From an uncultured Candidatus Saccharibacteria bacterium (lineage in GTDB: Bacteria > Patescibacteriota > Minisyncoccia > UBA6257 > 1-14-0-10-44-23), in the NCBI GenBank assembly GCA_964394435.1, contig CAYMXN010000003.1, forward strand, positions 635-64,634: 64,000 nucleotides of DNA. Reading direction: 5' to 3'. The notes below the pieces were generated by a model that made no database searches, was not told the origin of the DNA, and saw nothing but the letters and a program-made list of their open reading frames with translations. A program made the translations under genes and the position numbers. Below, piece after piece: positions 11,067 through 30,000 of this stretch. Numbering within the stretch: position 1 is the stretch's first letter; every line of letters starts with the position of its first letter.

Positions 11067-11501
11067 CTAGTCCGTGCACTCCATCTTGAAGAAGGAGAAT
11101 ATTACCCATGTGGTCAGGATGGTTGTCGCGGTAATCGTGATCCATGTGGGTGGCGACCAGAAGCCAACTCCGGCAACGAATCCAATACAACCAACGATCA
11201 TTAAGGCGATCCCCGCAAGGCCGTGGATTACATGGACGAAACGGTTGGTTTCTGCGTGATTTCGATCATTGGAATTGTGATCTTTCAGCTCGCCTCGACT
11301 CCATTTTAGCAAGTAATAACCACCGATCATGCTGGCTGCGCTCACGAGAAGGCAGAGCAGGTCGAGCCCGATCTGAGCAGGCCTCGAGGTGGCCGGTATC
11401 ACTTTATGGATGATGGGAATGAGCGGCGTCCCCATGACGATAATGACGTAGAGTGCGAAGAATACTGCGGTTCGCAGAGAATCAACCTTAGCCTTGGTCA
11501 C
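11067..11501 (-). CDS. Integral membrane protein (about 4 TM), hypothetical
   Basis: Four hydrophobic helices (FFALYVIIVMGTPLIPII, LLCLLVSAASMIGGYYLL, IHGLAGIALMIVGCIGFVAGVGFW, ITATTILTTWVIFSFF). Confidence 0.5.
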   Translation of the reverse strand: MTKAKVDSLRTAVFFALYVIIVMGTPLIPIIHKVIPATSRPAQIGLDLLCLLVSAASMIGGYYLLKWSRGELKDHNSNDRNHAETNRFVHVIHGLAGIALMIVGCIGFVAGVGFWSPPTWITITATTILTTWVIFSFFKMECTD

Positions 11502-11580
11502 GTGTTTTCTCCAGAGAAGGGTCAGCCCTCAACCTAGCAAATCCCTTTCTTTTCGGCAATCTTCGGGCGATAATAGGCGT

Positions 11581-15396: not shown

Positions 15397-18135
15397 ATGA
15401 CCATTTCACAACTGGTTAGACGCCGCCGGTTATTCACCTTCGTCTTCACGATCGCCAGTTTTATATTGTCCTTATCGGTAGTTCGAGGAGCTACTACAAT
15501 GTATGAAATTACCAATGCCGGCGTTGCCGGCAATATTTTTGGCGGAAATTCAGGAACGGTAAGTGATATTATCTCGCAAAAATATGTCGCACCAGAAAAT
15601 CAAACACTGTGCACGGTATATCTAAAGGTGTATCGCATTAGCGCCGGCATCACAAAGCCAAGTTTGGTCTTAAGAGTTCGTCAGGGTGGTGGTCCGATAG
15701 ATGGGGAGCAAATCAGTATGGTTTCTGTGCCAGCCACTTCGCTCCCAACCAGCCTAGGTGCGTATGTTCCTTTTGTACTTCCAAGTTGTGTTTCACTAAC
15801 TGCCGGCACTACGTATTGGTTTACCTTTGAAAATTTTGAGCAGCCATATGTGACATCGTTTGGATATTATGTCGCCGGGTATCGTAATAGTGATCAGTAT
15901 AGCTACTCCTCGCAATGGCTAAGAACGTGTTCGGCGTGTGTCCCAGGGTACGCGCTCGTTGAAAATACAAATCGCGAGTGGGGGCTCAAGTTTGAGGGCC
16001 CCGACCCACTCCCGACAGTTTCAGATTTAAAGCAATCAAGACTTGATGGCACGACCGCTCTCGCCGAAGATGAAAAGCTTGATCAAGGCGAGCTAGTCTT
16101 AAGTGCAAAAATAAGTAGTCCATTTAATAAAAAGCTGAAGCTCGAAGTCTCAATCGAAGAAGCGTCGAGCGCGCCAGCCATATATAGTAGCGAACTGATT
16201 GACTCGGGTGGCGTCGCAAGTATCACGCTTCACAACTTCCCCGACGGGGATTATCTCTGGCGCGCCCGAACAGTTGATATAGATGGCGCCACTTCCTCGT
16301 GGACTTCATTTGGTGCGCCGGAGGTGCAAGACTTTCGTATTCACCGCACGCCGATTATCATCGTCCCGGGTATTTTAGGCACATATCTCGGCCAAGGAGA
16401 TGATTTACTTTGGGCGAACCTCGCGCGAATGCTTCTTGATGTCAATGACGAGTTTTTAAGTACCGGCCTGGCGATGGATAGCGAAGGCAACTCGGTCAAC
16501 AACATCACGGTGGGAGAGGCAATAACGGTAGTTTTAAATCATGTTCCTGGATTCGAAGTAAATACCTTTTTGGATCTTAAGGAGTCATTTAACAATATCC
16601 AATATATTCAAGATAAAAATCTCTTCTTTTTTCCATACGACTGGCGCGTCGACCTCAACATAACCAAAGACTTACTCAAGCAGAAAATCGACGAGGTAAA
16701 ACAAAAAACTGGCGCTACAAAGGTAGATATTATTGCGCACAGTATGGGCGGCTTGCTGACTAAAAACTATCTTAATCTGTACGGTAAAGAGAGTATTGAT
16801 AAGCTCATCTTTGTTGGTACGCCCCACTTAGGCGCACCCAAGGCGGCGAAAACGCTCTTAGTTGGCGAGCGCTTTGATATTCCGATGCTCGCCGACTCGG
16901 CGATGCGGTCTCTCGCTCTTAACGCTCCAGCGGTATACGAGCTCTTGCCGGGCCAAACCTATTTCAATCAGGCCCAAGGATATATCAAAACAAAAGGCTC
17001 AACTGATGTGCTTGGTTATTCTGCCACTAAAGATTTCCTAGTGAGTGGCGGAGTAAATTGGAATATTTTAGATAAGACGCAAAACTTTTTTGGTAAAAGC
17101 CTGGAGGAGATGAGCCTCGACGGGATAGACGCGTATAACATCGCCGGCTGTCGGAGCGCGACTCAAGCAGGGTATGAGTTCGGAGCTGACAAGACCGATA
17201 TCGTAGCACTCCGTGAATCTTCGGGCGATGGTACCGTCCCACTCGAGAGCGCTGACTACGTTAACGTTCCGAATAATCACAAGTTTTATTTTAAAGACGC
17301 GACTCACTCAAAGCTTCCAAGCGCTGAATCAGTGCGCAATATAATTTTGAATATTATCAAAGGTGAACAGGTGACACTTCCGAGCGATTTGGCGCAAGGC
17401 GATAGCTCGTTTTGTGATTTTAAAGGTAAAGAGCTCCTCTGGCACAGTCCAGTCGAGGTGCACGTCTATGACGAGCTGGGTAATCACACCGGGCCAACAG
17501 AAAACAATGTAATCGAGTACAATATCCCGGGAGTGGAGTACCAGATTGTCGGGCACAACAAGTTCATCTTCTTGCCAACCGACACGGGCCACGTATATCG
17601 TATCGTCTCGCACGGTACTGATGCGGGCACCTTTGATTTATTTGTGCGAGAAAATAACAATGGCGAGATCGCGTCGACCAAGCTCTATAACGACATCCCA
17701 ATAACTACGAGTAGCAATATGGAGTTTAGTCTCTCGAGTGAGAGCGTGGATAACGAAATAACTATTAGCGATGGCGAAGAAGCGACGCGGGTAATCACCG
17801 CCGTGGCCGCACAGGGGATGGCTGATGGTGACGTGGTAATCACAACAACGCCGACCCCAACCGAGTCAGCAGCGAGTACGACCGAAGAGGTTTTGTCAGA
17901 GCCAGCGGCGCCAGCACCACAAACGAATACCATAACAGGTGGGGGCGGAGGTGGCGGTACATATTATTACGCCTCACCAGCTCCAGAGGGGCAGGTGTTA
18001 GGAGCTTCGATTGGATTTGCCGATAGCGCAGAGCTTAAGCGCAAAGCGCTCCTTGAGCAGATCGTAGTCATTCTTCAGCAGATTATCAGTCTACTTAGGC
18101 AACAGCTCCAAATTAAAACCAATATAGTATACTAA
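15397..18135 (+). CDS. Large secreted alpha/beta-hydrolase (LCAT/PGAP1-like lipase/acyltransferase domain) with an unknown roughly 300-aa N-terminal domain, a Gly7 linker and a C-terminal helical tail
   Basis: N-terminal anchor LFTFVFTIASFILSLSVVRG. Lipase core IIIVPGILGTYLG...FFFPYDWRVDL...KVDIIAHSMGGLLTKNYL...FVGTPHLGAPKAAK (GxSxG nucleophile elbow, LCAT-like PYDWR). The run TITGGGGGGGTYYY lies near the C-terminus. Confidence 0.55.
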   Translation: MTISQLVRRRRLFTFVFTIASFILSLSVVRGATTMYEITNAGVAGNIFGGNSGTVSDIISQKYVAPENQTLCTVYLKVYRISAGITKPSLVLRVRQGGGPIDGEQISMVSVPATSLPTSLGAYVPFVLPSCVSLTAGTTYWFTFENFEQPYVTSFGYYVAGYRNSDQYSYSSQWLRTCSACVPGYALVENTNREWGLKFEGPDPLPTVSDLKQSRLDGTTALAEDEKLDQGELVLSAKISSPFNKKLKLEVSIEEASSAPAIYSSELIDSGGVASITLHNFPDGDYLWRARTVDIDGATSSWTSFGAPEVQDFRIHRTPIIIVPGILGTYLGQGDDLLWANLARMLLDVNDEFLSTGLAMDSEGNSVNNITVGEAITVVLNHVPGFEVNTFLDLKESFNNIQYIQDKNLFFFPYDWRVDLNITKDLLKQKIDEVKQKTGATKVDIIAHSMGGLLTKNYLNLYGKESIDKLIFVGTPHLGAPKAAKTLLVGERFDIPMLADSAMRSLALNAPAVYELLPGQTYFNQAQGYIKTKGSTDVLGYSATKDFLVSGGVNWNILDKTQNFFGKSLEEMSLDGIDAYNIAGCRSATQAGYEFGADKTDIVALRESSGDGTVPLESADYVNVPNNHKFYFKDATHSKLPSAESVRNIILNIIKGEQVTLPSDLAQGDSSFCDFKGKELLWHSPVEVHVYDELGNHTGPTENNVIEYNIPGVEYQIVGHNKFIFLPTDTGHVYRIVSHGTDAGTFDLFVRENNNGEIASTKLYNDIPITTSSNMEFSLSSESVDNEITISDGEEATRVITAVAAQGMADGDVVITTTPTPTESAASTTEEVLSEPAAPAPQTNTITGGGGGGGTYYYASPAPEGQVLGASIGFADSAELKRKALLEQIVVILQQIISLLRQQLQIKTNIVY

Positions 18136-18735: not shown

Positions 18736-19398
18736 ATGAAAATTAAGGATCTTCCGAAAGTAGATCAGCCGCGGGAAAAATTGGCTAAATATGGGCCGGA
18801 GAAGTTGAATAACTCCGAGCTTCTGGCGATTTTACTGCGCACGGGTATGAAAGGGACGAACGTTGTCGAACTCGCTCGGCAGATTTTACAGCAGATTGGC
18901 GGGAAGAATCTCGCGAGTGTTACGCTGACAGATTTAAAAAAGATTAAAGGGCTTGGGCCGACGAAGGCCGGGCAGATTATTGTTTCACTCGAACTCGGGA
19001 AGCGGTTTCTGAAAGACAAGAAGTCCGTGCTTCATCTTTCACCTGCGGACGTGTATGAGCAACTCAAAGATATTCGGGATTTAAAGAAAGAGCATTTTGT
19101 CGTGCTCTTTCTTGATTCCCGCAGTCAGGAGATTAAACGAGAGACGGTTTCAGTAGGTATACTTAATGCGAGCCTAGTACATCCACGGGAAGTTTTTGAG
19201 CCAGCCATCAAGTGTAATGCTGCGCAAGTGATTGTTGCGCACAATCATCCGTCGGGGGGCGCGGAGCCGTCAGAAGAGGACATTCAAATTACAAAACGCC
19301 TCGTCGAAGCAGGAAAGTTGCTCGGGATAGAGCTATTAGATCATGTGATTGTGGCGATAAAGGGCTTTACGAGTCTGAAAGTCCAGGGGTTGTTTTAG
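18736..19398 (+). CDS. radC: RadC-family JAB/MPN domain protein (UPF0758)
   Basis: N-terminal HhH-like ELLAILLRTG...GLGPTKAGQII. JAMM motif ...VIVAHNHPSGGAEPSEEDIQITKRL. Confidence 0.85.
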   Translation: MKIKDLPKVDQPREKLAKYGPEKLNNSELLAILLRTGMKGTNVVELARQILQQIGGKNLASVTLTDLKKIKGLGPTKAGQIIVSLELGKRFLKDKKSVLHLSPADVYEQLKDIRDLKKEHFVVLFLDSRSQEIKRETVSVGILNASLVHPREVFEPAIKCNAAQVIVAHNHPSGGAEPSEEDIQITKRLVEAGKLLGIELLDHVIVAIKGFTSLKVQGLF

Positions 19399-19415
19399 GT
19401 ATTCACAGGTACATA

Positions 19416-19456
19416 TTGACGCAATCTTACATGTACGTTATTATGTACATGTAAAT
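19416..19456 (+). promoter_or_regulatory. Sigma70-like promoter with an overlapping palindromic operator upstream of the toxin-antitoxin pair
   Basis: TTGACG (19416-19421), about 17-18 nt, TATTAT. A perfect 9-bp inverted repeat TACATGTAC-8 nt-GTACATGTA spans the -10 region. Confidence 0.5.
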
Positions 19457-19470
19457 AATGATACAAAAAT

Positions 19471-19806
19471 ATGGATAACAACAAAACGATGTCAATCTCG
19501 GAGGGGCGCAAGCGGATTTTTGAAATTTTAGAAGAGGTACAAAAGCCCGGAGTCCACTACACCTTTACCGAAAAAGGAAAATCAAAAGGCGTATTAATGT
19601 CAGCCGAAGAGTTTGATTCACTTCAGGAAACCCTTGAGATATTAAGCGATCCTATGATCGCAAAGAAAATCGAGCTTGCTGAAGCGGAGTATCAGCGCGG
19701 TAACTATGTTACCTGGAGTGAGTTTAAAAAAGAATTGCATGCGAAGGATCGGGCAAATATTGTTGCGGATAAGAGCAGTAAAAAGTATCGAGCCGGTAAA
19801 AAATAA
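19471..19806 (+). CDS. Phd/YefM-family type II antitoxin
   Basis: MSISEGRKRIFEILEEV...YTFTEKGKSKGVLMSAEEFDSLQETLEILSDPMIAKKIELAE matches the YefM/Phd pattern. It sits immediately upstream of a RelE-like ORF. An alternative ATG is at 19489. Confidence 0.7.
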   Translation: MDNNKTMSISEGRKRIFEILEEVQKPGVHYTFTEKGKSKGVLMSAEEFDSLQETLEILSDPMIAKKIELAEAEYQRGNYVTWSEFKKELHAKDRANIVADKSSKKYRAGKK

Positions 19807-19811
19807 GGTAT

Positions 19812-20063
19812 ATGGCTTTCATCGTCCACGTTCCGGATCCGGTCAGGAAAGATATCCTTCAAGTTCCTTTGCCTTGGCGAAATCGAATTGTGATCGCAAT
19901 CGATCACCTAGAGAGTGATCCGTGGTATGGAGATAAGATGCTGGGGAAGTACAAAGATCAGTATAAAATACGCATCTGGCCATATCGGATCTTGTATCGT
20001 GTAGATAAGAAGAAAAAAGTAGTGGTGATCAACGAAGTCGGTCAACGCGGCGGGATGTATTAG
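19812..20063 (+). CDS. RelE/ParE-family type II toxin
   Basis: 83 aa; ...KYKDQYKIRIWPYRILYRVDKKKKVVVINEVGQRGGMY, the typical RelE/ParE C-terminal signature. Starts 5 nt after the antitoxin. Confidence 0.7.
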   Translation: MAFIVHVPDPVRKDILQVPLPWRNRIVIAIDHLESDPWYGDKMLGKYKDQYKIRIWPYRILYRVDKKKKVVVINEVGQRGGMY

Positions 20064-20117: not shown

Positions 20118-20702
20118 ATGTATAAGGAATTACATGAGATCGCCACAGTTATAGCCGGATATACCTTCCGGGGGGCTATTACGCCTGATGCGAATGGGGA
20201 TCTTTATGTATTCCAAGCAAAGGATCTTGTGCGGAATGAGACTGTCCAAGATGTTAATGCTTTAACGAAGATCAGCTCAAATATTCCGGGGTATGCCGGG
20301 CATCTTGAGCGAAACGACGTGTTGCTTGTCGCTCGCGGCATGAAAGCCGGAGCGTTTCGGGCGACAGTTTTTGAAGCCGAAGACAAGAATGTCATCGCGT
20401 CTTCTTCTATCCATGTTATTCGCGTCACAAAGGAAGGCGTTCTCCCTGAGTACGTTTCTCATTATTTAAACTCAAGGCAGGGGCAGGAGGCGCTCGCTGA
20501 GATTGTTACCGGCTCATATATCGGGGCGCTGCCGCGTAAGGCGCTTGAGAAGCTGAAAATTCCTATACCTCATTTCAAAAAACAGCAGATGCTGATAGAT
20601 CTTTATCAAAATATACGAGAACAGCAAAAGATCATCAGTCAGCAAAACGAGATCAAACAGAGGATTGTCAGCGAAACACTTAAAAACCTAACCAACGCCT
20701 AA
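20118..20702 (+). CDS. hsdS: Type I restriction-modification specificity subunit, half-size (single target-recognition domain plus conserved coiled-coil)
   Basis: TRD-like N-terminal region then the conserved HsdS central/C-terminal helix ...LPRKALEKLKIPIPHFKKQQMLIDLYQNIREQQKIISQQNEIKQ. 194 aa against 419 aa for the downstream full hsdS. Confidence 0.65.
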   Translation: MYKELHEIATVIAGYTFRGAITPDANGDLYVFQAKDLVRNETVQDVNALTKISSNIPGYAGHLERNDVLLVARGMKAGAFRATVFEAEDKNVIASSSIHVIRVTKEGVLPEYVSHYLNSRQGQEALAEIVTGSYIGALPRKALEKLKIPIPHFKKQQMLIDLYQNIREQQKIISQQNEIKQRIVSETLKNLTNA

Positions 20703-20705
20703 CCT

Positions 20706-22220
20706 ATGACTGCTATCAAAAAATATTCACAAGAGGAACTAAACAAAACGCTTTGGGCGGCCGCGGACTCTTCGCGTAGTAGCGTGGATGGGGGAGTGTA
20801 TAAGGACTATGCGCTGACGATGCTCTTCTTTAAGTACTTGAGCGATTTAAATAAAAAGCGACACGCCGAGTACAAGGCGCGGTTTGGTGCTGATGAGAAA
20901 CGTATTGAGGAGAAGATGAAGCTCGACCGGTTCTATCTCCCACCGAAGTCGTCTTTTGATTATATCTACAGCAAGATCGAAGAGGATAATATCGGTGAAG
21001 AAGTGAATAAGGTGCTTCACCGCATTGAAGACGCGAATAAAGAGAAGCTCGAGGGTGTTTTTAGTGTGGACTTCAACTCTGAGTCAGTACTCGGCAAACT
21101 TGAGCAACGGAATAAGATGCTGCGCCACCTGATTCAGGATTTTGCGAAAATCGATTTGTCTGACGCGGGTGAAGATGTAATCGGTGGAGCATATATGTAC
21201 ATGATCGAGCGCTTTGGTGCTGACGCGGGCAAAAAAGCGGGGGAATTTTTTACGGTTAGAAACGTAGCGAAGCTTGTGGCGATGCTGGCTGGGCCGAAAG
21301 AAGGTGATCGTATTTGTGACCCGGCGATGGGATCGGGAGGTTTGCTTTTGCTCGCCGGGGAAGAAGTTGAAAAGCAGGGCTCAAAAAACTACGCGCTCTA
21401 TGGGCAGGAGTCGACGGGTTCAACGTATCAACTTGCGCGGATGAATATGTTTTTGCACGGAAAGGATTCGGCTCGAATTGAGTGGGGAGACACGCTTAAC
21501 AATCCGCTTCTCGTGGAGAACGACCAGCTGATGCACTTCGATGTTGTCGTCGCCAACCCGCCGTTTTCGCTTAAGAAGTGGGGCGCGGAGCACGCTGAGA
21601 GCGATAAGTATAAGCGGTTCTGGCGCGGTGTGCCGCCGAAGGACAAGGGTGATTATGCTTTTGTGACGCACATGATCGAGACGGCGAAGCCGAAAACGGG
21701 GCGTGTGGCGGTGATCGTACCGCACGGCGTGCTTTTCCGCGGCGGTGCCGAGGGAAAGATCCGCGAGCAGCTTTTGAAAGAAAACATTATCGACGCGGTG
21801 ATCGGTCTTCCCGCCGGGCTCTTTCAGACAACGGGTATCCCGGTGGCGGTTTTGATTATTGACCGGTCGCGCGAGAAGGGCGGAGCGAACGAGAAAAAGA
21901 AAGACGTGCTGTTCATTGAGGCGTCAAAAGAGTTTAAGGCGAACAAGGCGCAGAACATTCTGACCGACGAGAACATCGCCAAGATTTTCGACACCTATAA
22001 GAAGCGTAAAGACGTTGAGAAGTTTTCGCGCAAGGTGAGCTTTAAAGAGATCGAGGAGAACGACTTCAACCTCAATATCACGCGCTACGTGGATACCTTT
22101 GTTGAGGAAGCGCCGGTGGATATCAAGGCGAACTTGAAAGAACTAGCTGAGCTCGAGCCGCAACTGCAAAAGCTCGAGAAGCAAATGGTCGAGTATTTAA
22201 AGGAGCTGGGGATTAAATAG
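20706..22220 (+). CDS. hsdM: Type I restriction-modification N6-adenine DNA methyltransferase subunit
   Basis: HsdM_N-like N-terminus. Motif I ICDPAMGSGGLLL. Motif IV FDVVVANPPFSLKKW. Confidence 0.9.
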   Translation: MTAIKKYSQEELNKTLWAAADSSRSSVDGGVYKDYALTMLFFKYLSDLNKKRHAEYKARFGADEKRIEEKMKLDRFYLPPKSSFDYIYSKIEEDNIGEEVNKVLHRIEDANKEKLEGVFSVDFNSESVLGKLEQRNKMLRHLIQDFAKIDLSDAGEDVIGGAYMYMIERFGADAGKKAGEFFTVRNVAKLVAMLAGPKEGDRICDPAMGSGGLLLLAGEEVEKQGSKNYALYGQESTGSTYQLARMNMFLHGKDSARIEWGDTLNNPLLVENDQLMHFDVVVANPPFSLKKWGAEHAESDKYKRFWRGVPPKDKGDYAFVTHMIETAKPKTGRVAVIVPHGVLFRGGAEGKIREQLLKENIIDAVIGLPAGLFQTTGIPVAVLIIDRSREKGGANEKKKDVLFIEASKEFKANKAQNILTDENIAKIFDTYKKRKDVEKFSRKVSFKEIEENDFNLNITRYVDTFVEEAPVDIKANLKELAELEPQLQKLEKQMVEYLKELGIK

Positions 22221-22223
22221 TCT

Positions 22224-23285
22224 ATGAAAGTGCTTGCCACTAGGTCGACATCTAATGAGACGATGGACATATCGGTCGTCGTTCTCAGAGAAAATAGCAA
22301 AACGCGGCTCGTTTTCTGTCCGAGTTGGGTTACTCCGTCAAGTAACCCATTGCGCGGAGGCTTTCGTTTTCAGCGGAAAGGACCAAAAGATCTTTGGGTT
22401 AATGTTGACCATAAGCCGCTTTCGACCCTTAAAAAAGATGAGGGTTATGAGCTCAATCTTGATGGAGCGGAAATGGCGAAGTTATTTGATGAACTCGGAG
22501 ACATCAGGGAGGTGCTTGCAAAGTATGGGCATTCCTCTGGCACAAGGACTTTAATTTTAAGTGAGAAAAATGCTGGTGGTATTTTTCTTCAGATCGGTGA
22601 GCTGGAAAATCGCGATTGGGTTATTAAACAACTTAAAACGCTGGAAAATGAAAATTTTGAAAACCTTGGATCGGCAATTGGCCGGGCGAGACTAGAGGCA
22701 GCGATTGAGAAGTTTGGAAAGAATTTGGCGAATACAGATGAGAAATTCTGGGAGGATTTTTTCGAAAGTAGTCCATGGATACTTCAGCAGGTCTTCGCAT
22801 TTCCTGTTATATATCTCAATGGCGAGACATATCTCGGCGGTAAAAATTCAAAAGGGCGTCAAGGTTCGGGTGGTTCAGCAACTGATTTCCTTTTTAAGCA
22901 TGGTTCGAATGGCAGTTTTGCCGTCGTCGAAATTAAAACACCTGGCTGTGGCCTCGTCGGCGGGAAGTATCGAGGCGACAAAGATTCTGACGAAAAGAAT
23001 GAACTTTACGGTATTCATGGCGAATTGAGTGGGGGCGTGGTGCAGATGGAGAACCAGATTAATATTGCGATAGAGCATTTTAAGACGACGATCGGAGAGG
23101 ACTATGAAGGCTTGAATCATTTAAACCCAGCAGGTGTTTTAATCGCCGGGGATTATTCTAAATTGAAGCCGGCAGAACGAAAGTCTTTTGATTTATTCCG
23201 GAAGTCGTTAGGTAAAAATCAAATTTATACTTTCGACGAAGTGCTTGCTAAGTTGAAGCTCTTAAAAGTTGTCTATGAAAGCTAA
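22224..23285 (+). CDS. DUF4263/Shedu-like PD-(D/E)xK nuclease-family protein embedded in the type I RM operon
   Basis: The C-terminal roughly 170 aa fits the DUF4263 layout: ...PWILQQVF...ATDFLFKHGSNGSFAVVEIKTPG (D...E-x-K core), ...VVQMENQINIAIEHF (Q-helix), ...PAGVLIAGDYSKL...NQIYTFDEVLAKLK (characteristic C-terminal iiTyDeLl). The N-terminal roughly 180 aa have no recognisable motif. The start is 3 nt after the hsdM stop and the stop overlaps the hsdS start. Confidence 0.55.
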   Translation: MKVLATRSTSNETMDISVVVLRENSKTRLVFCPSWVTPSSNPLRGGFRFQRKGPKDLWVNVDHKPLSTLKKDEGYELNLDGAEMAKLFDELGDIREVLAKYGHSSGTRTLILSEKNAGGIFLQIGELENRDWVIKQLKTLENENFENLGSAIGRARLEAAIEKFGKNLANTDEKFWEDFFESSPWILQQVFAFPVIYLNGETYLGGKNSKGRQGSGGSATDFLFKHGSNGSFAVVEIKTPGCGLVGGKYRGDKDSDEKNELYGIHGELSGGVVQMENQINIAIEHFKTTIGEDYEGLNHLNPAGVLIAGDYSKLKPAERKSFDLFRKSLGKNQIYTFDEVLAKLKLLKVVYES

Positions 23286-24528
23286 CTCAGCTCAAAAAAA
23301 TATTCCTGATGGGTGGAGAAGCGTTCGAATAAGGGATGTGGCTTTCTTGAACAAAAAAAGCCTTGGTAACGAAACCCCAGAAAATTTTAAGTTTAAATAT
23401 ATTGACCTATCGTCTGTTGATAATGGTGTAATTAAATTGCCGTTGGAATATGTCCGGTATGGAGAGTCGCCATCACGAGCGAGGAGAGTATTCAAAAAAG
23501 GCGATATATTAATGGCAACTGTAAGGCCAAATCTGCTCGGGCACTGCATAGTTAATTTTGATGCACATGAATACATTGGCTCCACTGGTTTTGCGGTAAT
23601 CGAAAATAAAAAAGATCAGTTGAATAACTATTTTCTATTCTCTTATTTGTTTTCAAAAAAATTACGGGATCATTTGAATAACATGCTAGTTGGGTCGAGC
23701 TACCCAGCCATTAATTCATTAGAAGTCGCGAATCTCAAAGTTGATCTTCCTCCTCTTCCCGAGCAGAACCGCATCGTGGCGGTGCTGGAGACTTGGGATA
23801 GGGCTATCGAGAAGCTGGCTCGGAAAATTGAGGTTAAAAAGAATATTAAAATGGGCTTGATGCAGGAGCTCCTTACCGGCAAAACCCGTCTACCGGGATT
23901 TAAGGGAGTGTGGGAGAAGGTTGAGCTAGAAAAAGTTATGCTAAGTTTTACTACAGGCTTAAATCCAAGAGATAATTTCTTGCTCGGAACAGGAAACAAT
24001 TTTTATGTAACGATAAAAAATATCTCACAAGGTCGGTTAGATTTCTCGAGTTGCGAACGCATCGATGATCGTGCGTTAGGGCTCATTAACAAAAGATCAG
24101 GCCTAAACGTGGGCGATATTATAATGGCTAGCATTGGCAATGTAGGTGATGCTTTTCTCGTAGGGGATAAACCAAAGAATTGGGATATAAACGAGTCAGT
24201 TTTTTGCTTAAAGCCAAATCCCAAAATTGTCTACTCTCAATTCGTATATTACATCATCACAAGCCAGGCGGCTCAAAAGTATTTCAGCAATAATATCACC
24301 GGGAGCTCCTTTAGGAGTATTAAAATGAAAGAGCTCAGGGCTATGCCCATTAATTTAATACCCTTAGATGAACAAAGGAAGATTGTTGATATTTTACTAA
24401 CTATAGATCGCGAGCTGAGCATTCTAGAGAGAAAATTGGGGAATTTCCAGGACCAGAAAAAGTATCTACTCAATAACTTGATCACCGGCGCGATTCGAAC
24501 GCCGGAGAAGATGAAAATTCACTCATAA
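23269..24528 (+). CDS. hsdS: Type I restriction-modification specificity subunit, full length (two target-recognition domains)
   Basis: Two TRD-like halves separated by the conserved central helix ...PLPPLPEQNRIVAVLETWDRAIEKLARKIEVKKNIKMGLMQELLTGKTRLPGF, and a C-terminal conserved helix ...LIPLDEQRKIVDILLTIDRELSILERKL. Confidence 0.85.
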   Translation: MSMKANSAQKNIPDGWRSVRIRDVAFLNKKSLGNETPENFKFKYIDLSSVDNGVIKLPLEYVRYGESPSRARRVFKKGDILMATVRPNLLGHCIVNFDAHEYIGSTGFAVIENKKDQLNNYFLFSYLFSKKLRDHLNNMLVGSSYPAINSLEVANLKVDLPPLPEQNRIVAVLETWDRAIEKLARKIEVKKNIKMGLMQELLTGKTRLPGFKGVWEKVELEKVMLSFTTGLNPRDNFLLGTGNNFYVTIKNISQGRLDFSSCERIDDRALGLINKRSGLNVGDIIMASIGNVGDAFLVGDKPKNWDINESVFCLKPNPKIVYSQFVYYIITSQAAQKYFSNNITGSSFRSIKMKELRAMPINLIPLDEQRKIVDILLTIDRELSILERKLGNFQDQKKYLLNNLITGAIRTPEKMKIHS

Positions 24529-24532
24529 TCAT

Positions 24533-27500
24533 ATGCTCGAAAAAGTAAATTTTGATGAAGCGAAGCAGTCACAACTCCCAGCGCTAGAGCTTCTTTTGGC
24601 TATGGGATACAAGTACATCTCAGCCGAAGAGGCGTTGCGCCAGCGGGGCGGGGATACCTCGAACTTCATCTTAACTGATATTGCGGCCGAAAAGCTGATG
24701 GAGATTAATGGCTATGAGGTTGATGGCGCTAATCACAAGTTTAGCGGGAAAGACGTTCGCGACGCGATTGATGAACTTGAGCATCTGCCATATGAAGGCC
24801 TCATCGACACCGCGCAAGAGGTTTATAACATTGTGATGCCGACCAGTGGTGGTAAGACGATTAAAGTAAGCCACGCGGGCAAGACGATGTCGCAGAATTT
24901 CCGCTTTATTGATTTTAAGAATCCAGAAAATAACGCGTTTCATGTAACCGCGGAGTTTGTGGTGAGCGGCAAGCAAAACATCCGGCCGGATATCGTTTGC
25001 TTTGTAAACGGCATCCCGTTTGCGGTGATCGAGAATAAGAAGGGCAGCGTCGGCGTTGTTGAGGCGATCAACCAGATGAATCGCAATCAAGGACCAGAGT
25101 TTTGCCCGAAGTTTTTTGCGTATACTCAGCTTTTGGTCGCGACGAACGGGAAGGAGTTACAATATGGCACCACAGGCACACCGAATAAGTTTTATGCGGT
25201 TTGGAAAGAAAAGGGGGCAGAGAAAGAGATTGAGGCGAAGGCGGTGAAGCTGATTAAAAAGCCGGTGAGCGCTTTAACGTATGCGCAGGTTTTGGCTGAT
25301 TTAAACGGATATACTGATGGCCACAAGCAAAAGCTGGACCGATTACCGACAGAACAGGATCGGGGAATTGTTGCGCTTTTTGAGCCAGCGCGACTTTTAG
25401 ACCTTACGAAGAATTATGTTTTGTTTGATGCGGGAGTAAAGAAGCTCTCGCGGTATCAGCAGTATTTTGCGATCGAGAAGATGTTGACTCGGGTGGCAGA
25501 GATTGAGCAGGGACCAAAAGGTGAGCGCCGACGCGGTGGTTTGATTTGGCACACGCAAGGCTCGGGAAAGTCCTTAACAATGGTCATGTTCGTGAAGGCG
25601 TTGATCGAGAATCCGCATATTAGCAATCCACGAGTGATTATCGTGACCGATCGAAAAGACCTCGATCGCCAGATTAGGGACACGTTCAAGAACTGTAATT
25701 TAAAGAAAGAAGTTATCCAGGCGAATACCGGTCAGCAGTTAGTTAATCTAATCAAGGAGAGAAATCTTTCAGTAGTGACTACCACGGTCCACAAGTTTGA
25801 ACCAGGGAGGAAAAAGAATGCTGGTTTTGTTGATACTGATAAAAACATCTTTGTTCTAGTTGACGAAGCGCATCGCACTCAAAATGGTGTTGCGAATTTA
25901 GAGATGAATCAACTTATCCCGAACGCCTGCTATATCGGCTTTACGGGTACGCCCCTAATGACTGGCGAAAAAGAAAGCTGGAAAAAGTTCGGTGGCTATA
26001 TCGATAGATATACTATTGATGATGCGCTTACTGATAAAATAATTTTGCCGCTTATTTACGAAGGACGGTATGCCCCCCAAGGGCAGAATGCAGAGCAGAT
26101 CGACCGGCAAGTTGACCGCGTATCTGAAAATTTAAGTAGAAAATATAAAGTTGAGCTTCAAAAGTTTGTTAGTACGGAGATTATCAGAGATAATCCTCAG
26201 CGCATTACTGAGATTTCGTATGACATCGAGAAGCATTTTCTCACACACTTTAAAGATACCGGCTTAAAGGCGCAGATTGTTGCTCCGTCTAAGTATTCGG
26301 CGATTCTATTTCAGAATCTGTTTGAGTCGCGTGGTAAGATTCGCACCGCGGTGATTATTTCTGACGAGCATGAGGACGGCGATGAGTCGAACACGCACCG
26401 AAAGGAGGTGGTGAAGTATTTAGATGGTATTCGGGCGAAATACAGCAGCGTCGGCAAGTATGAGAAGGATATGGTTGAGAGCTTTAAGAATTATGAGGAG
26501 GGTATCGAGGTGATTATCGTCGTTGATAAGCTTTTAACCGGATTTGATGCGCCTCGCAATACGGTTTTGTATTTAGCAAAAGATCTTAAGGATCATAACT
26601 TGCTGCAGGCGATTGCGCGCGTAAATCGTTTGCACGAGAACAAGAAGCTCCCAAAAACGGCAGGCTATATTATCGACTACTCAGAAAACGCTAAGAACAT
26701 TGATACGGCAATGAGGCTGTTTGGTAACTACGATGAGAACGATGTGAAGGGGACGCTGATCGACGTGAGCGAGAAGATTCAAGAGCTTGAGCAGAGCTAC
26801 GCCTTAGTGCACGACTTGTTTAATGAAGCGAAGGGATCGTCTGATGATGAGGTATATTTGCAGTTACTTAAGGATGAGCCGAAGCGCGAGACGTTCTATA
26901 AGGCGCTCAATGCGTTTATTAAGAACTTCAACGAGTGTTTTGTGTTGCAAGACTTCGTGCACGAGTTTGGCGGGAAGCTGAATGTGTATCGTAAAGAGCT
27001 GAAGAAGTTTATGGAGCTTCGTAAGACAGCGAGTTTGCAATATGCGGATCGTATCGATCTTTCTGAATATAAGCAGGCGCTCATTAACATCCTCGACAAA
27101 TATGTTGATGCGGGTGAAGTTGAGTTACTGACTAAGCAAATTAATATCACTGATCGCAAACAATTTGAGGAGGCGGTTGCTACGCTCGGTTCTGACAAGT
27201 CGAAGGCTGAAGCGATTGCAGCTCAGACGCAAAAGACGATTCATGAAAGGCTTGAGTCTGACCCTGAGTTCTATGAGCGATTTTCGAAGAAGATTTCTGA
27301 GATCCTAGAGAAGATGAGGCAGGGGAAGCTTGCTGATATCGCGGCGCTTAAGCAACTGAAGCTTATCGAAGACGATGTGATTCAGAAAAAAGACGTGGCG
27401 CTGCCAGGGGCGATTATCGCGCAGCCGGGATCCGATATCTTATATCGTAATCTTCAAGAGGTATTTAAGAATCACAAAGTGAGCGAAGATGATTTTATCG

Positions 27501-27721
27501 CCATCGTTGTTGATATCTTTGCGCTCGTAAAAAAAGAAGCGATTGTTGATTGGTATAAGAATATCGATGTGAAGCGACGGATGAAAAACGTCATTGACGA
27601 CTATGTGTATGACGTTATTAGGGGTGAGCGAGGTATAGAGATTACGGATGATGAGACGGTTAAGATTATAGAACGAGTAATGCAATTAGCTGAGAACAAC
27701 TATGAAATCTTCGGAGCGTAA
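24533..27721 (+). CDS. hsdR: Type I restriction enzyme R subunit (SF2 helicase/endonuclease)
   Basis: N-terminal PD-(D/E)xK-like region (..VNGIPFAVIENKK..), Walker A HTQGSGKSLT, DEAH box FVLVDEAHRTQ, motif VI-like LLQAIARVNR. 1062 aa. Confidence 0.9.
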   Translation: MLEKVNFDEAKQSQLPALELLLAMGYKYISAEEALRQRGGDTSNFILTDIAAEKLMEINGYEVDGANHKFSGKDVRDAIDELEHLPYEGLIDTAQEVYNIVMPTSGGKTIKVSHAGKTMSQNFRFIDFKNPENNAFHVTAEFVVSGKQNIRPDIVCFVNGIPFAVIENKKGSVGVVEAINQMNRNQGPEFCPKFFAYTQLLVATNGKELQYGTTGTPNKFYAVWKEKGAEKEIEAKAVKLIKKPVSALTYAQVLADLNGYTDGHKQKLDRLPTEQDRGIVALFEPARLLDLTKNYVLFDAGVKKLSRYQQYFAIEKMLTRVAEIEQGPKGERRRGGLIWHTQGSGKSLTMVMFVKALIENPHISNPRVIIVTDRKDLDRQIRDTFKNCNLKKEVIQANTGQQLVNLIKERNLSVVTTTVHKFEPGRKKNAGFVDTDKNIFVLVDEAHRTQNGVANLEMNQLIPNACYIGFTGTPLMTGEKESWKKFGGYIDRYTIDDALTDKIILPLIYEGRYAPQGQNAEQIDRQVDRVSENLSRKYKVELQKFVSTEIIRDNPQRITEISYDIEKHFLTHFKDTGLKAQIVAPSKYSAILFQNLFESRGKIRTAVIISDEHEDGDESNTHRKEVVKYLDGIRAKYSSVGKYEKDMVESFKNYEEGIEVIIVVDKLLTGFDAPRNTVLYLAKDLKDHNLLQAIARVNRLHENKKLPKTAGYIIDYSENAKNIDTAMRLFGNYDENDVKGTLIDVSEKIQELEQSYALVHDLFNEAKGSSDDEVYLQLLKDEPKRETFYKALNAFIKNFNECFVLQDFVHEFGGKLNVYRKELKKFMELRKTASLQYADRIDLSEYKQALINILDKYVDAGEVELLTKQINITDRKQFEEAVATLGSDKSKAEAIAAQTQKTIHERLESDPEFYERFSKKISEILEKMRQGKLADIAALKQLKLIEDDVIQKKDVALPGAIIAQPGSDILYRNLQEVFKNHKVSEDDFIAIVVDIFALVKKEAIVDWYKNIDVKRRMKNVIDDYVYDVIRGERGIEITDDETVKIIERVMQLAENNYEIFGA

Positions 27722-28421
27722 GCCAGCGAAGTTTACATTTGGCTCTTTTGTGTATCATTACGATCTGGTTCGAGAGGAGCGTAAGACGCTCGGCCTAACC
27801 GTGATGCCCAATTTGAGTATTTACTTAAAATCTCCGCATGAAGCTAGCGCGGAGCGAATCGATTTATTTTTGAAGCGGAAGTGGTTTTGGCTCGAGAAGC
27901 AACTCAACTTCTTCAGAAAGCATCAACGAAAGATGTATACAAAGGAGTACATTTCTGGTGAGAGTTTTCTATACCTCGGGAGGCAGTATGAGCTTTTGGT
28001 TCGATCAGCCGTAAAGCCCAAAGTCGTGCTATCGAAAAAGAGTCTGGCACTTTATACAGATAGAGGTTTATCTGATGGCGCGAGAAACAAGAGGATTCTC
28101 GACGCCTGGTATGCAAAAAGGATCGGCGTAGTTTTTGCTGAGCGGCTTGCTCACGCCGTGAAGAAGTTTGGTTACCAGGCCGTACCTGAATTGATTATTC
28201 GCGAGATGCCTCGTCGATGGGGGAGTTTTCTGAGTACGGAGAAAATCATCTTGAATCCACGTCTTATTTTTACCTCAAAAGAGTGCATTGATTACGTCAT
28301 CACCCACGAGCTCTGTCACTGGAAGTTTAAAAATCATAATAGGAAGTTTTTCGCTTTGCTTGAGAAGCAATATCCGAAATGGAAAAAGGTCAAAGAAAAG
28401 TTAGAGATGTATGGGATATAA
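27702..28421 (+). CDS. YgjP/DUF45-family (M48/SprT-like) zinc metallopeptidase, translationally coupled to hsdR
   Basis: HExxH in VITHELCHWKFKNHNRKF, with a DUF45-typical N-terminus (..YHYDLVREERKTLGLTV...IYLKSP..). The start overlaps the hsdR stop by 20 nt. Confidence 0.7.
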   Translation: MKSSERKPAKFTFGSFVYHYDLVREERKTLGLTVMPNLSIYLKSPHEASAERIDLFLKRKWFWLEKQLNFFRKHQRKMYTKEYISGESFLYLGRQYELLVRSAVKPKVVLSKKSLALYTDRGLSDGARNKRILDAWYAKRIGVVFAERLAHAVKKFGYQAVPELIIREMPRRWGSFLSTEKIILNPRLIFTSKECIDYVITHELCHWKFKNHNRKFFALLEKQYPKWKKVKEKLEMYGI

Positions 28422-28638
28422 ACATTATCGGAGGAAGAATCGAGAGAATGATCTGAAGAAATGGATTCCCGCTATGGTTATTTTCGCGATCGTCTTCGTA
28501 GGAGTTTTTATATATAGATTTTTTTCAAATTGCATTTTTGAATGGCCGATTCGTTGGGATGTTAAGACTTGTTGGAATGAGCAAATTGCTCCGGCAAAAC
28601 AAAAAGCCGCAGAGCAAGCAGCTGATTTTGCGCCATGA
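28411..28638 (+). CDS. Small membrane protein (1 TM), hypothetical
   Basis: WIPAMVIFAIVFVGVFIYRFF helix. Weak gene model. Confidence 0.3.
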   Translation: MGYKHYRRKNRENDLKKWIPAMVIFAIVFVGVFIYRFFSNCIFEWPIRWDVKTCWNEQIAPAKQKAAEQAADFAP

Positions 28639-29833: not shown

Positions 29834-29906
29834 GCCCTTGTAGCTCAATGGATTGAGCAAGCCGCTTCTATCGGCGAGGTTGTAGGTTCAAATCCTGCCA
29901 AGGGCA
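29834..29906 (+). tRNA. tRNA-Arg (anticodon TCT)
   Basis: Cloverleaf folded by hand. Acceptor GCCCTTG/CAAGGGC plus discriminator A. D-arm GCTC-AATGGATT-GAGC. Anticodon arm AGCCG-CTTCTAT-CGGCG (one 27:43 mismatch; loop has U33 and A37). Variable loop AGGTT. T-arm GTAGG-TTCAAAT-CCTGC. No encoded CCA. Confidence 0.8.
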
Positions 29907-30000
29907 CGAGTTGTGATATTCTAAATTAATGACTTTGTATCAAAAGTTTCAGGCGAAGCTACTAAGAAAGTGGAGTAGGGAGTAGGAAGACCCGCAGATT

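What the first reader, a model, noticed from the sequence alone, without database searches (positions are those of the whole stretch)
20118..28421. Type I RM operon carrying an embedded DUF4263/Shedu-like nuclease, plus half-size and full hsdS genes and a coupled YgjP peptidase
The operon order is hsdS'(half)-hsdM-ORF353-hsdS-hsdR-YgjP.

ORF353 (22224-23285) starts 3 nt after the hsdM stop, and its stop overlaps the hsdS start, so it is transcribed and probably translated as part of the RM operon. Its C-terminal half has the D...E-x-K core (DFLFKHGSNGSFAVVEIK), a Q-helix (VVQMENQINIAIEHF) and the characteristic C-terminal ...IYTFDEVLAKLK of DUF4263/Shedu-type PD-(D/E)xK nucleases. The N-terminal roughly 180 aa have no recognisable motif.

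A second effector nuclease embedded between hsdM and hsdS/hsdR, in the position PrrC/RloC-type anticodon nucleases take, would be a layered RM-plus-abortive-infection/Shedu system. The N-terminal sensor domain may be new.

The co-existence of a half-size single-TRD hsdS upstream and a two-TRD hsdS downstream may allow alternative specificities or recombinational switching. The hsdR stop and YgjP start overlap by 20 nt.
Basis: partly seen in the sequence, partly recalled or inferred. Interest (0 to 1): 0.72.

Follow-up and report, generated by a model that had tools for sequence, protein, structure and literature searches.

The report
Shedu nuclease inside Type I restriction operon
A Type I restriction-modification operon, probably from a candidate-phyla-radiation (Patescibacteria) bacterium, carries a Bacillus-cereus-type Shedu anti-phage nuclease between its methylase and specificity genes; the description is accurate, but the arrangement is already published and ordinary, and the nuclease's N-terminal domain is a known one.

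Summary
Six co-directional, tightly packed genes lie at 20118-28421: half-size hsdS, hsdM, ORF353, full hsdS, hsdR and a YgjP/SprT-like metalloprotease.

ORF353 is a complete Type 1A Shedu (SduA). It hits Pfam SduA_C and also SduA_N, and aligns over its full length to Bacillus cereus Shedu (PDB 8TI8). Every residue shown to matter in that enzyme is kept. The N-terminal domain is therefore the known sPC4/Whirly-type domain, not a new sensor.

Shedu genes inside RM operons are published (Gu et al.: 602 of 5,499; Payne et al.: embedded defence genes in Type I RM). Among this protein's close relatives, most distinct loci are embedded in the same operon type and several are standalone.

Operons anchored on close HsdM homologues all keep the frame half-hsdS-hsdM-[slot]-hsdS-hsdR-ygjP. 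The slot cargo varies: another Shedu, ThsB-TIR, an OLD-like ATPase, Bro-N, RhuM, or unknown proteins. SduA is one interchangeable cargo.

Recombinational hsdS switching is not supported. The two genes share no repeats, are about 20% identical, and no recombinase is adjacent.

The half-size HsdS belongs to a dedicated family of about 190 aa whose role is untested. hsdR-YgjP coupling is widespread.

Verdict: new member of a known kind, low to moderate interest.

The parts
20118..20702 (+). Half-size, single-TRD HsdS-like specificity subunit (194 aa), 3 nt upstream of hsdM
   Evidence: Pfam Methylase_S covers aa 3-177 (5.8e-08) and PADLOC Specificity_I hits at 1e-17. It is homologous to either half of the full HsdS at about 20% identity. 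It belongs to a dedicated family: the top 120 homologues are all 180-221 aa at 48-70% identity. It is present upstream of hsdM in every syntenic operon examined.
20706..22220 (+). hsdM, the Type I N6-adenine DNA methyltransferase
   Evidence: Pfam HsdM_N plus N6_Mtase (1.4e-100) and TIGR00497 hsdM above its cut-off. DPAMGSGG lies at aa 205-212 and NPPF at aa 284-287. More than 6,900 homologues have E<1e-150, and the top ones are 84-91% identical and labelled Patescibacteria.
22224..23285 (+). sduA (ORF353), a Type 1A Shedu nuclease. N-terminal sPC4/Whirly-type domain at aa ~8-106 (nt 22245-22541), helical linker at aa ~107-170, DUF4263 PD-(D/E)xK nuclease at aa 171-341 (nt 22734-23246).
23275..24528 (+). 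hsdS, the full two-TRD specificity subunit (417 aa from the ATG at 23275). It overlaps the sduA stop by 11 nt.
   Evidence: Pfam Methylase_S in two stretches (3.2e-34) and PADLOC Specificity_I 1.5e-57. The public gene call gives 417 aa. It is hypervariable between sister operons, at 22-38% identity.
24533..27721 (+). hsdR, the Type I restriction/translocase subunit
   Evidence: Pfam HSDR_N, SWI2_SNF2 and T1R_D3-like; TIGR00348 at 8.4e-144. The nuclease motif D153...E167-x-K169, Walker A GSGKS and DEAH are all present.
27702..28421 (+). YgjP/SprT-like zinc metalloprotease, overlapping the hsdR stop by 20 nt
   Evidence: Pfam YgjP-like 1.4e-48, with weaker WLM and SprT-like hits. HELCH lies at aa 202-206. 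It follows hsdR in all syntenic loci and in Sulfitobacter, Zymomonas and Klebsiella plasmids.
18736..20063 (+). Upstream island genes: RadC-like JAB protein (18736-19398) and a Phd/ParE toxin-antitoxin pair (19471-19806, 19812-20063)
   Evidence: Pfam RadC 5.5e-43, PhdYeFM_antitox 6.3e-13 and ParE_toxin 7.2e-06. RadC also precedes the chassis in L107 and L109.

Best explanation
The region is a Type I restriction-modification operon of a type widespread in Patescibacteria (CPR). It has a fixed frame, half-size hsdS - hsdM - [variable slot] - hsdS - hsdR - ygjP, and here the slot between hsdM and hsdS holds one interchangeable defence cargo: a Type 1A Shedu nuclease.

Shown here:
- Domain identity and conservation of all functionally tested residues of SduA.
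- The co-directional, overlapping gene layout.
- Conservation of the frame together with variability of the slot.

Inferred from B. cereus Shedu (Gu et al.): SduA rests as an auto-inhibited homotetramer in which the motif II loop (around D221) is held away from the active site. Its sPC4/Whirly-type N-terminal domains sense a nucleic-acid cue from infection, probably a single-stranded or overhanging DNA end. This releases inhibition, tetramers pair into octamers, and DNA is cut without killing the host.

Inferred for the RM part: the enzyme methylates and restricts as usual, and the two systems act as independent, complementary layers expressed from one transcript.

Inferred from precedent only: the half-size HsdS most likely homodimerises with HsdM to give a second, palindromic specificity. 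The YgjP/SprT-like protease is a general companion of this HsdR family, possibly removing or controlling HsdR on DNA. That last idea is speculative.
For: SduA identity:
- Pfam SduA_N and SduA_C, PADLOC SduA 1e-62, and a full-length alignment to B. cereus Shedu 8TI8.
- AF2 model: N-domain beta-beta-beta-beta-alpha, with a low-confidence loop at aa 200-220 that corresponds to the mobile motif II loop.
- Residues tested in BcShedu map to R28, E173, K207/K210 (the GGK motif), D221, E236/K238, Q274 and F286, which are invariant or at least 90% conserved in 45 homologues.

Co-expression: gaps of 3-4 nt or overlaps of 11 and 20 nt, and no excess of promoter- or terminator-like sites over shuffled sequence.

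Cargo status:
- Among about 15 distinct loci with SduA at 46% identity or more, about 9-10 are embedded between hsdM and hsdS, and 4 are standalone with no RM genes nearby, at 48-71% identity. Two more (L015, L028) lie beside only a weak methyltransferase-like match.
- Embedded and standalone forms interleave in an SduA tree.
- Five of five operons anchored on HsdM at 87-91% identity keep the frame but carry other cargo.
- DNA homology to these operons stops at the hsdM stop codon and resumes at the hsdR start.

Published precedent: Gu et al. report 602 of 5,499 Shedu genes within RM systems, Type I included. Payne et al. report embedded genes in Type I RM. TgvAB sits inside the Vibrio cholerae Type I RM.

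Half-size HsdS: homodimers giving palindromic sites are documented (Loenen et al. 2013).

hsdR-YgjP pairing: seen in three unrelated plasmids.
Against: - No experiment or expression data exist for this locus.
- Full-length BcShedu could not be activated in vitro by its authors, so the sensed cue is unknown even for the prototype.
- Y315 of BcShedu, at the octamer interface, is F286 here. That is conservative but untested.
- SduA and HsdM distances correlate among six syntenic loci (Spearman 0.66). Some co-inheritance, and hence some functional coupling, cannot be excluded.
- None of the examined operons has an empty slot, which could mean the slot product contributes to RM function.
- The even conservation of the half-size HsdS (50-65% where the full HsdS is about 30%) is unlike a typical diversifying specificity subunit. 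The 'second specificity' reading may therefore be wrong.
- The organism is inferred only from the labels of related loci.
Confidence: 0.8

Rival explanations
1. Functional relay, or PrrC-like guardianship. In one version SduA is coupled to the Type I enzyme because HsdR cleavage and translocation of unmethylated DNA create the free or single-stranded ends that the Whirly-type domain senses. In the other, the Hsd complex holds SduA latent until a phage anti-restriction protein disables it.
For: - Tight translational coupling inside the operon.
- About 9-10 of about 15 distinct close-relative loci are embedded at the same position.
- SduA distances track HsdM distances among syntenic loci (rho 0.66).
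- Gu et al. suggest Shedu may complement RM or BREX.
- In V. cholerae, tgvAB alone protected 10- to 100-fold less against several phages than the whole cluster; that paper went on to test an HsdR contribution, a result I did not read.
- PrrC is a precedent for an RM guardian.
Against: - Relatives at 62-71% identity are standalone with no RM genes nearby (L003, L006, L010), and they interleave with embedded ones in the tree.
- One 70%-identical relative sits in an unrelated Type I system whose HsdM is only 40% identical (L008).
- B. cereus and E. coli Shedu protect as single genes.
- The same slot holds many unrelated cargoes.
Confidence: 0.15
2. The two hsdS genes form a specificity-switching system. 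The upstream half-size hsdS would be a spare TRD cassette that recombines with the full hsdS to change target specificity.
For: Two hsdS-type genes lie in one operon. Shufflon-type hsdS switching exists in other bacteria (hsdS invertons, listing).
Against: - No direct or inverted repeats longer than chance-sized 14-21-mers link the two genes.
- Protein identity is about 20%.
- Both genes have the same orientation, so recombination between them would delete hsdM and sduA.
- No recombinase is adjacent in the window.
- The half-size gene is a full-length member of a conserved family of about 190 aa with its own start codon, coupled to hsdM.
Confidence: 0.03
3. The half-size HsdS is not a second DNA-specificity subunit. 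Instead it is a constant structural or regulatory partner of HsdM, for example an assembly factor or a decoy controlling methylase versus restriction activity.
For: - It is much better conserved (50-65%) than the full HsdS (22-38%) in operons whose HsdM is about 90% identical, and the conservation is even along its length rather than confined to the helix.
- Family members have a uniform length.
- It was absent from three proteobacterial operons of the same hsdR-YgjP type, so the basic enzyme does not need it.
Against: It keeps a full Methylase_S TRD-plus-helix unit, and single-TRD subunits are known to work as homodimeric specificity subunits. A conserved TRD could simply mean a conserved palindromic target.
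Confidence: 0.25

Closest known systems
Bacillus cereus B4264 Shedu (SduA), Type 1A; PDB 8TI8/8TI9 (Gu et al., bioRxiv 10.1101/2023.08.10.552793)
   Same: - Same three-part architecture: sPC4/Whirly-type N-domain (Pfam SduA_N), helical linker, and DUF4263 PD-(D/E)xK nuclease.
- All mutationally tested residues are conserved: R29, E204, K238/K241, D249, E264/K266 and Q295. Y315 is Phe here.
   Different: - Only about 25-30% identical.
- 353 aa against about 380 aa.
- Apparently from a Patescibacteria genome.
- Encoded inside a Type I RM operon rather than tested as a lone gene.
- Octamer-interface Tyr is replaced by Phe.
- Activity and trigger are untested.
Escherichia coli SduA (PDB 8PS4/8PS5; Loeff et al., bioRxiv 10.1101/2023.08.10.552762)
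   Different: The N-terminal domain differs. EcSduA has a clamp that binds blunt dsDNA ends and nicks about 13-14 nt from the 5' end. ORF353's N-domain is the B. cereus type, so that end-clamp mechanism cannot simply be transferred.
Defence genes embedded in Type I RM operons: PrrC in EcoprrI, rlo genes in Campylobacter, TgvAB in Vibrio cholerae VPI-2, and the 'guilt-by-embedding' sets of Payne et al. 2024
   Same: An unrelated defence gene is inserted between hsd genes and co-oriented with them, and the slot content varies between related operons. Cargo in sister operons hits PADLOC's embedded-candidate families PDC-S13 and PDC-M50A.
   Different: PrrC depends physically on its RM partner, and nothing here suggests that for SduA. 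The slot here lies between hsdM and hsdS. TgvAB lies between hsdR and hsdS like RloF, PrrC lies between hsdS and hsdR (from my own knowledge), and the cargo in the plasmid examples also lies between hsdS and hsdR.
Homodimeric half-size HsdS subunits (truncated EcoR124I and EcoDXXI, natural NgoAV; Loenen et al. 2013)
   Same: A single TRD plus one coiled-coil helix of about 190 aa. Such proteins can pair to form a symmetric specificity subunit.
   Different: Here the half-size gene coexists with a full two-TRD hsdS in the same operon, and it is a conserved, dedicated family rather than a truncation product. Its activity is untested.

Membership tests
Shedu / SduA (DUF4263 nuclease family) | C-terminal DUF4263 domain (Pfam PF14082) above the curated threshold | tested here: met
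   PF14082 scores 64.5 bits against a cut-off of 27, E 1.7e-17, over aa 171-341 and covering 2-159 of 159 profile positions. PADLOC SduA PDLC00399 hits at 1.1e-62.
Shedu / SduA (DUF4263 nuclease family) | PD-(D/E)xK motifs I-IV (BcShedu E204, D249, E264-x-K266, Q295) | tested here: met
   E173, D221, E236-x-K238 and Q274 align to these residues (PDB chain numbering is paper numbering plus 2). E173, D221, K238 and Q274 are invariant and E236 is at least 90% conserved in 45 homologues.
Shedu / SduA (DUF4263 nuclease family) | Nuclease-domain fold matching solved Shedu structures | tested here: met
Shedu / SduA (DUF4263 nuclease family) | Confers anti-phage protection that depends on the nuclease active site | not testable with these tools
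   This needs plaque assays with wild type against D221A or K238A mutants.
Type 1A Shedu (sPC4/Whirly N-terminal domain, B. cereus class) | N-terminal domain of the SduA_N (PF21407) family with a beta-beta-beta-beta-alpha sPC4/Whirly repeat | tested here: met
Type 1A Shedu (sPC4/Whirly N-terminal domain, B. cereus class) | Conserved arginine on the putative nucleic-acid-binding face (BcShedu R29, needed for immunity) | tested here: met
   R28 aligns to Bc R29 and is at least 90% conserved in alignment A1.
Type 1A Shedu (sPC4/Whirly N-terminal domain, B. cereus class) | Motif II loop GGK lysines (K238/K241) and octamer-interface aromatic residue (Y315) | tested here: met
   K207 (in LGGK, invariant) and K210 align to K238 and K241. 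F286 (invariant) aligns to Y315, a conservative Tyr-to-Phe change.
Type 1A Shedu (sPC4/Whirly N-terminal domain, B. cereus class) | [quoted passage not shown] | not testable with these tools
Type I restriction-modification system | hsdM, hsdS and hsdR all present with intact catalytic motifs | tested here: met
   TIGR00497 hsdM and TIGR00348 hsdR score above their cut-offs, and Methylase_S matches twice in hsdS. NPPF, DPAMGSGG, D...ExK, GSGKS and DEAH are all present.
Type I restriction-modification system | Sequence-specific m6A methylation and ATP-dependent restriction | not testable with these tools
   This needs a methylome or a restriction assay.
PrrC/RloC-type RM-guardian anticodon nuclease | ABC-ATPase-like N-domain plus a C-terminal anticodon nuclease domain | tested here: not met
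   ORF353 has only the SduA_N and SduA_C domains. It is a DNA nuclease family, not an anticodon nuclease.
PrrC/RloC-type RM-guardian anticodon nuclease | [quoted passage not shown] | tested here: not met
   Four of about 15 distinct close-relative loci are standalone (L003, L006, L010, L014), and most distant relatives are standalone.
Phase-variable hsdS shufflon/inverton | Repeats shared by hsdS copies plus an associated recombinase | tested here: not met
   No shared repeats beyond 14-21-mers, same orientation, and no recombinase among the neighbouring genes.

The most novel reading that the evidence does not exclude
This Patescibacteria Type I RM frame may be a dual-specificity enzyme. A conserved half-size HsdS homodimer would give a constant palindromic site, and a hypervariable full HsdS a second site. 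The cassette slot between hsdM and hsdS would then be functionally wired to the enzyme: HsdR cleavage or translocation produces the single-stranded or overhanging ends that the Whirly-type domain of the embedded Shedu senses. RM and Shedu would act as a relay rather than as two independent layers, with the coupled SprT-like protease clearing stalled HsdR.
Probability: 0.12. Interest if true: 0.6.

Novelty: new member of a known kind. Interest (0 to 1): 0.27.

Why it matters
The locus is a clean natural example of a Shedu nuclease co-expressed with a Type I RM system, from candidate-phyla-radiation bacteria whose defence systems are little studied. Its wider value lies in the operon frame rather than the Shedu gene. 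The slot between hsdM and hsdS in this very common Patescibacteria operon carries a changing set of defence genes, several with no known family, so it could be mined for new systems by the published 'guilt-by-embedding' logic. The conserved half-size HsdS and the ubiquitous HsdR-coupled SprT/YgjP protease are both functionally unexplained parts of a widespread Type I RM family, and both are easy to test.

Tried and rejected
- I first read PDB 8TI8 as E. coli SduA and tried to map the E. coli residues (Trp25, Glu226 and others) onto ORF353. The numbering did not fit. Foldseek descriptions showed that 8TI8/8TI9 is B. cereus Shedu and that E. coli SduA is 8PS4/8PS5. I dropped the E. coli end-clamp mechanism as the model for this protein.
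- The single-sequence scan of genome contigs found no relatives. The alignment-based scan was needed.
- tblastn of ORF353 against the phage collection found nothing. Plasmid hits were only distant Shedu proteins.
- Literature searches for YgjP, DUF45 or COG1451 with restriction-modification gave nothing usable. The Makarova 2011 defence-islands paper is not held. I therefore tested the hsdR-YgjP linkage directly on loci and plasmids.
- Promoter and terminator scans gave counts equal to shuffled sequence, so no internal signals can be claimed.
- Recombinational hsdS switching was rejected.
- A novel N-terminal sensor was rejected.

Full report
OBSERVATION.
They are a half-size hsdS (20118-20702, 194 aa), hsdM (20706-22220), ORF353 (22224-23285), hsdS, hsdR (24533-27721) and a YgjP-like gene (27702-28421). 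Pfam, PADLOC and NCBIfam assign every one with strong scores.

Spacings are 3, 3 and 4 nt, with overlaps of 11 nt (ORF353/hsdS) and 20 nt (hsdR/YgjP). The hsdS start is better placed at the ATG at 23275, as in the public gene call. Promoter- and terminator-like sites are no more frequent than in shuffled sequence, so nothing argues against a single transcript.

The RM genes look intact. HsdM has DPAMGSGG and NPPF. HsdR has D...ExK, GSGKS and DEAH. YgjP has HELCH.

WHAT ORF353 IS.
It matches Pfam SduA_C (PF14082, aa 171-341, E 1.7e-17) and also SduA_N (PF21407, aa 8-106, E 4.9e-15). The best PADLOC SduA model scores 1.1e-62.

Against solved structures it aligns over its full length to chain 8TI8_A (E 1.1e-37), with the N-domain at aa 9-107 and the linker plus nuclease at aa 92-347. 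I first took 8TI8 for E. coli SduA. The fold search showed that 8TI8/8TI9 is Bacillus cereus Shedu and that E. coli SduA is 8PS4/8PS5.

With PDB chain numbering equal to paper numbering plus 2, every residue mutated in BcShedu has a conserved counterpart:
- R29 maps to R28.
- E204 maps to E173.
- The GGK-motif K238 maps to K207, and K241 to K210.
- D249 maps to D221.
- E264 and K266 map to E236 and K238.
- Q295 maps to Q274.
- Y315 maps to F286.

These positions are invariant or at least 90% conserved in the 45 homologues. ORF353 is therefore a Type 1A Shedu, the largest class in Gu et al. (1,684 of 7,687 proteins). The N-terminal domain is not new.

CONTEXT IN RELATIVES.
The protein has 289 database relatives at E below 1e-5, and nearly all the top ones carry both Pfam domains. 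I fetched loci through exact-protein look-ups and alignment-based scans of genomes and metagenomes. I then located the window's Hsd proteins in those loci by tblastn.

Among about 15 distinct loci whose SduA is at least 46% identical, all from Patescibacteria-type MAGs or unlabelled metagenomes, the contexts are:
- Eight (L005, L009, L011, L012, L016, L027, L029, L030) have SduA between hsdM and hsdS of a syntenic operon.
- One (L008) is embedded in an unrelated Type I system whose HsdM is 40% identical.
- Four (L003 at 71%, L006 at 62%, L010 at 66%, L014 at 48%) have no RM genes nearby.
- Two (L015, L028) lie beside only a weak methyltransferase-like match.

More distant relatives (below 40% identity) are mostly standalone.

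Embedded and standalone proteins interleave in a neighbour-joining tree. The tree has no bootstrap support, so this is indicative only. Among six syntenic loci, SduA distances correlate moderately with HsdM distances (rho 0.66). The refutation criterion 'homologues never found inside RM loci' is clearly not met, but SduA is not tied to RM either.

THE OPERON FRAME.
HsdM has more than 6,900 relatives at E below 1e-150. The top 120 are 84-91% identical and are labelled Nomurabacteria, Moranbacteria or Patescibacteria, far more than there are close SduA relatives.
- An unknown 282-aa protein (L106).
- A different Shedu plus an unknown protein (L107).
- An OLD/GajA-like AAA_15/21 ATPase (L108).
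- A Bro-N protein (PADLOC PDC-S13), two ThsB-TIR proteins and an 8xMP protein (L109).
- PDC-M50A, ThsB-TIR and an unknown protein (L110).

SduA-bearing loci can also hold Bro-N, RhuM, Mrr-cat or NYN genes.

DNA similarity between the window and the non-SduA operons ends at the hsdM stop codon (about 22219-22229). It resumes at the hsdS 3' end or the hsdR start (about 24451-24533), with a short island at the hsdS central conserved region. The variable block is thus the cargo plus the hsdS TRDs. SduA is one interchangeable cargo of a defence-gene slot.

The pattern is published. Gu et al. found 602 of 5,499 Shedu genes within RM systems, Type I included. Payne et al. describe frequent embedded genes in Type I RM, BREX and DISARM. 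TgvAB in Vibrio cholerae and RloF in Campylobacter and PrrC are specific cases.

THE TWO hsdS GENES.
The half-size protein is one TRD plus one helix. It is homologous to either half of the full HsdS at about 20% identity. No repeat longer than chance-sized 14-21-mers links the two genes. They have the same orientation, and no recombinase is adjacent in the window. Switching by recombination is therefore not supported.

The half-size gene is not a remnant. Its top 120 homologues are all 180-221 aa at 48-70% identity, and it precedes hsdM in every syntenic operon. It is clearly better conserved (50-65%) than the full HsdS (22-38%) in operons whose HsdM is about 90% identical, and the conservation is even along its length.

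Single-TRD subunits can homodimerise to recognise interrupted palindromes (Loenen et al. 2013). A second, constant specificity is thus the most economical reading, but a structural or regulatory role is not excluded.

YgjP.
The SprT/WLM-like metalloprotease follows hsdR, overlapping it or nearly abutting it, in all syntenic loci where that end of the operon is held. The same holds in Type I operons on Sulfitobacter, Zymomonas and Klebsiella plasmids, none of which shows an annotated half-size hsdS next to hsdM. The coupling is therefore a general trait of this HsdR family and not a peculiarity of this locus. Its function is untested. A role in removing or controlling DNA-bound HsdR is my speculation, by analogy with SprT/Wss1 proteases and ClpXP-dependent restriction alleviation (both from my own knowledge).

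MECHANISM.
The most likely mechanism (confidence about 0.8) is two independent, co-expressed layers:
- The Type I enzyme restricts unmethylated DNA.
- SduA rests as an auto-inhibited tetramer. It is activated through its Whirly-type N-domains by an infection-associated nucleic-acid cue, and cuts DNA after octamer formation, as proposed for BcShedu.

Only the domain and residue conservation and the gene layout are shown here. The activation steps are inferred from the prototype, whose trigger is itself unknown.

A functional relay or guardian relationship with the RM enzyme remains possible, at about 0.15.

VERDICT.
The Shedu call and the embedding are right. The 'new N-terminal sensor', the PrrC-like reading and the recombinational switching are not supported. 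This is a new member of a known kind. The residual interest lies in the conserved half-size HsdS, the cargo slot with several unknown proteins, and the unexplained HsdR-coupled protease.

Noticed in passing
window 22215-22230 and 23266-23281: The string GTCTATGAAAG occurs at both the hsdM-stop/sduA-start junction and the sduA-end/hsdS-start junction (family D7). DNA homology to sister operons with other cargo runs through the hsdM stop into the first codons of whatever follows. This may be the footprint of a cassette junction.
   Followed up: partly
window 20118-20702; proteins P0243-P0361: The half-size HsdS is a dedicated family of about 190 aa. It is more conserved than the full HsdS of the same operons and was absent from three proteobacterial operons of the same hsdR-YgjP type. 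Its function is unknown.
   Followed up: partly
L106:10517-11365; L107:11662-12081; L109:9564-10064 and 11284-12135; L110:11620-12054: Slot genes in sister operons with no PADLOC match. All but L109:9564-10064, which carries Pfam 8xMP, also lack any Pfam hit. They are candidate unknown defence genes by the guilt-by-embedding logic.
   Followed up: no
window 18736-20063: A RadC-like JAB protein and a Phd/ParE toxin-antitoxin pair sit directly upstream of the operon. RadC also precedes the frame in L107 and L109, and a large serine recombinase precedes it in L108 and L110. This suggests the frame travels on mobile islands.
   Followed up: partly
window 29834-29907: tRNA-Arg(TCT) lies 1.4 kb downstream of ygjP and could be an island boundary. 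No integrase was seen nearby.
   Followed up: no
window 28411-28638: A 75-aa ORF with an apparent transmembrane segment (judged by eye) overlaps the ygjP end by 11 nt and is called as a gene in public data. It is not conserved at DNA level in sister loci.
   Followed up: partly
window 1-64000: Nearly all ORFs of at least 150 aa lie on the + strand. The window also encodes a 912-aa LCAT/PGAP1-like lipase with a Gly run (15397-18135). From my own knowledge this suits a small Patescibacteria genome, but the organism was not identified directly.
   Followed up: no
L107:10520-11611: A sister operon whose HsdM is 90% identical carries a different Shedu in the same slot: 363 aa, SduA_C only, about 25% identical to ORF353, best PADLOC model PDLC00385. 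Different Shedu classes have been recruited to this slot independently.
   Followed up: partly
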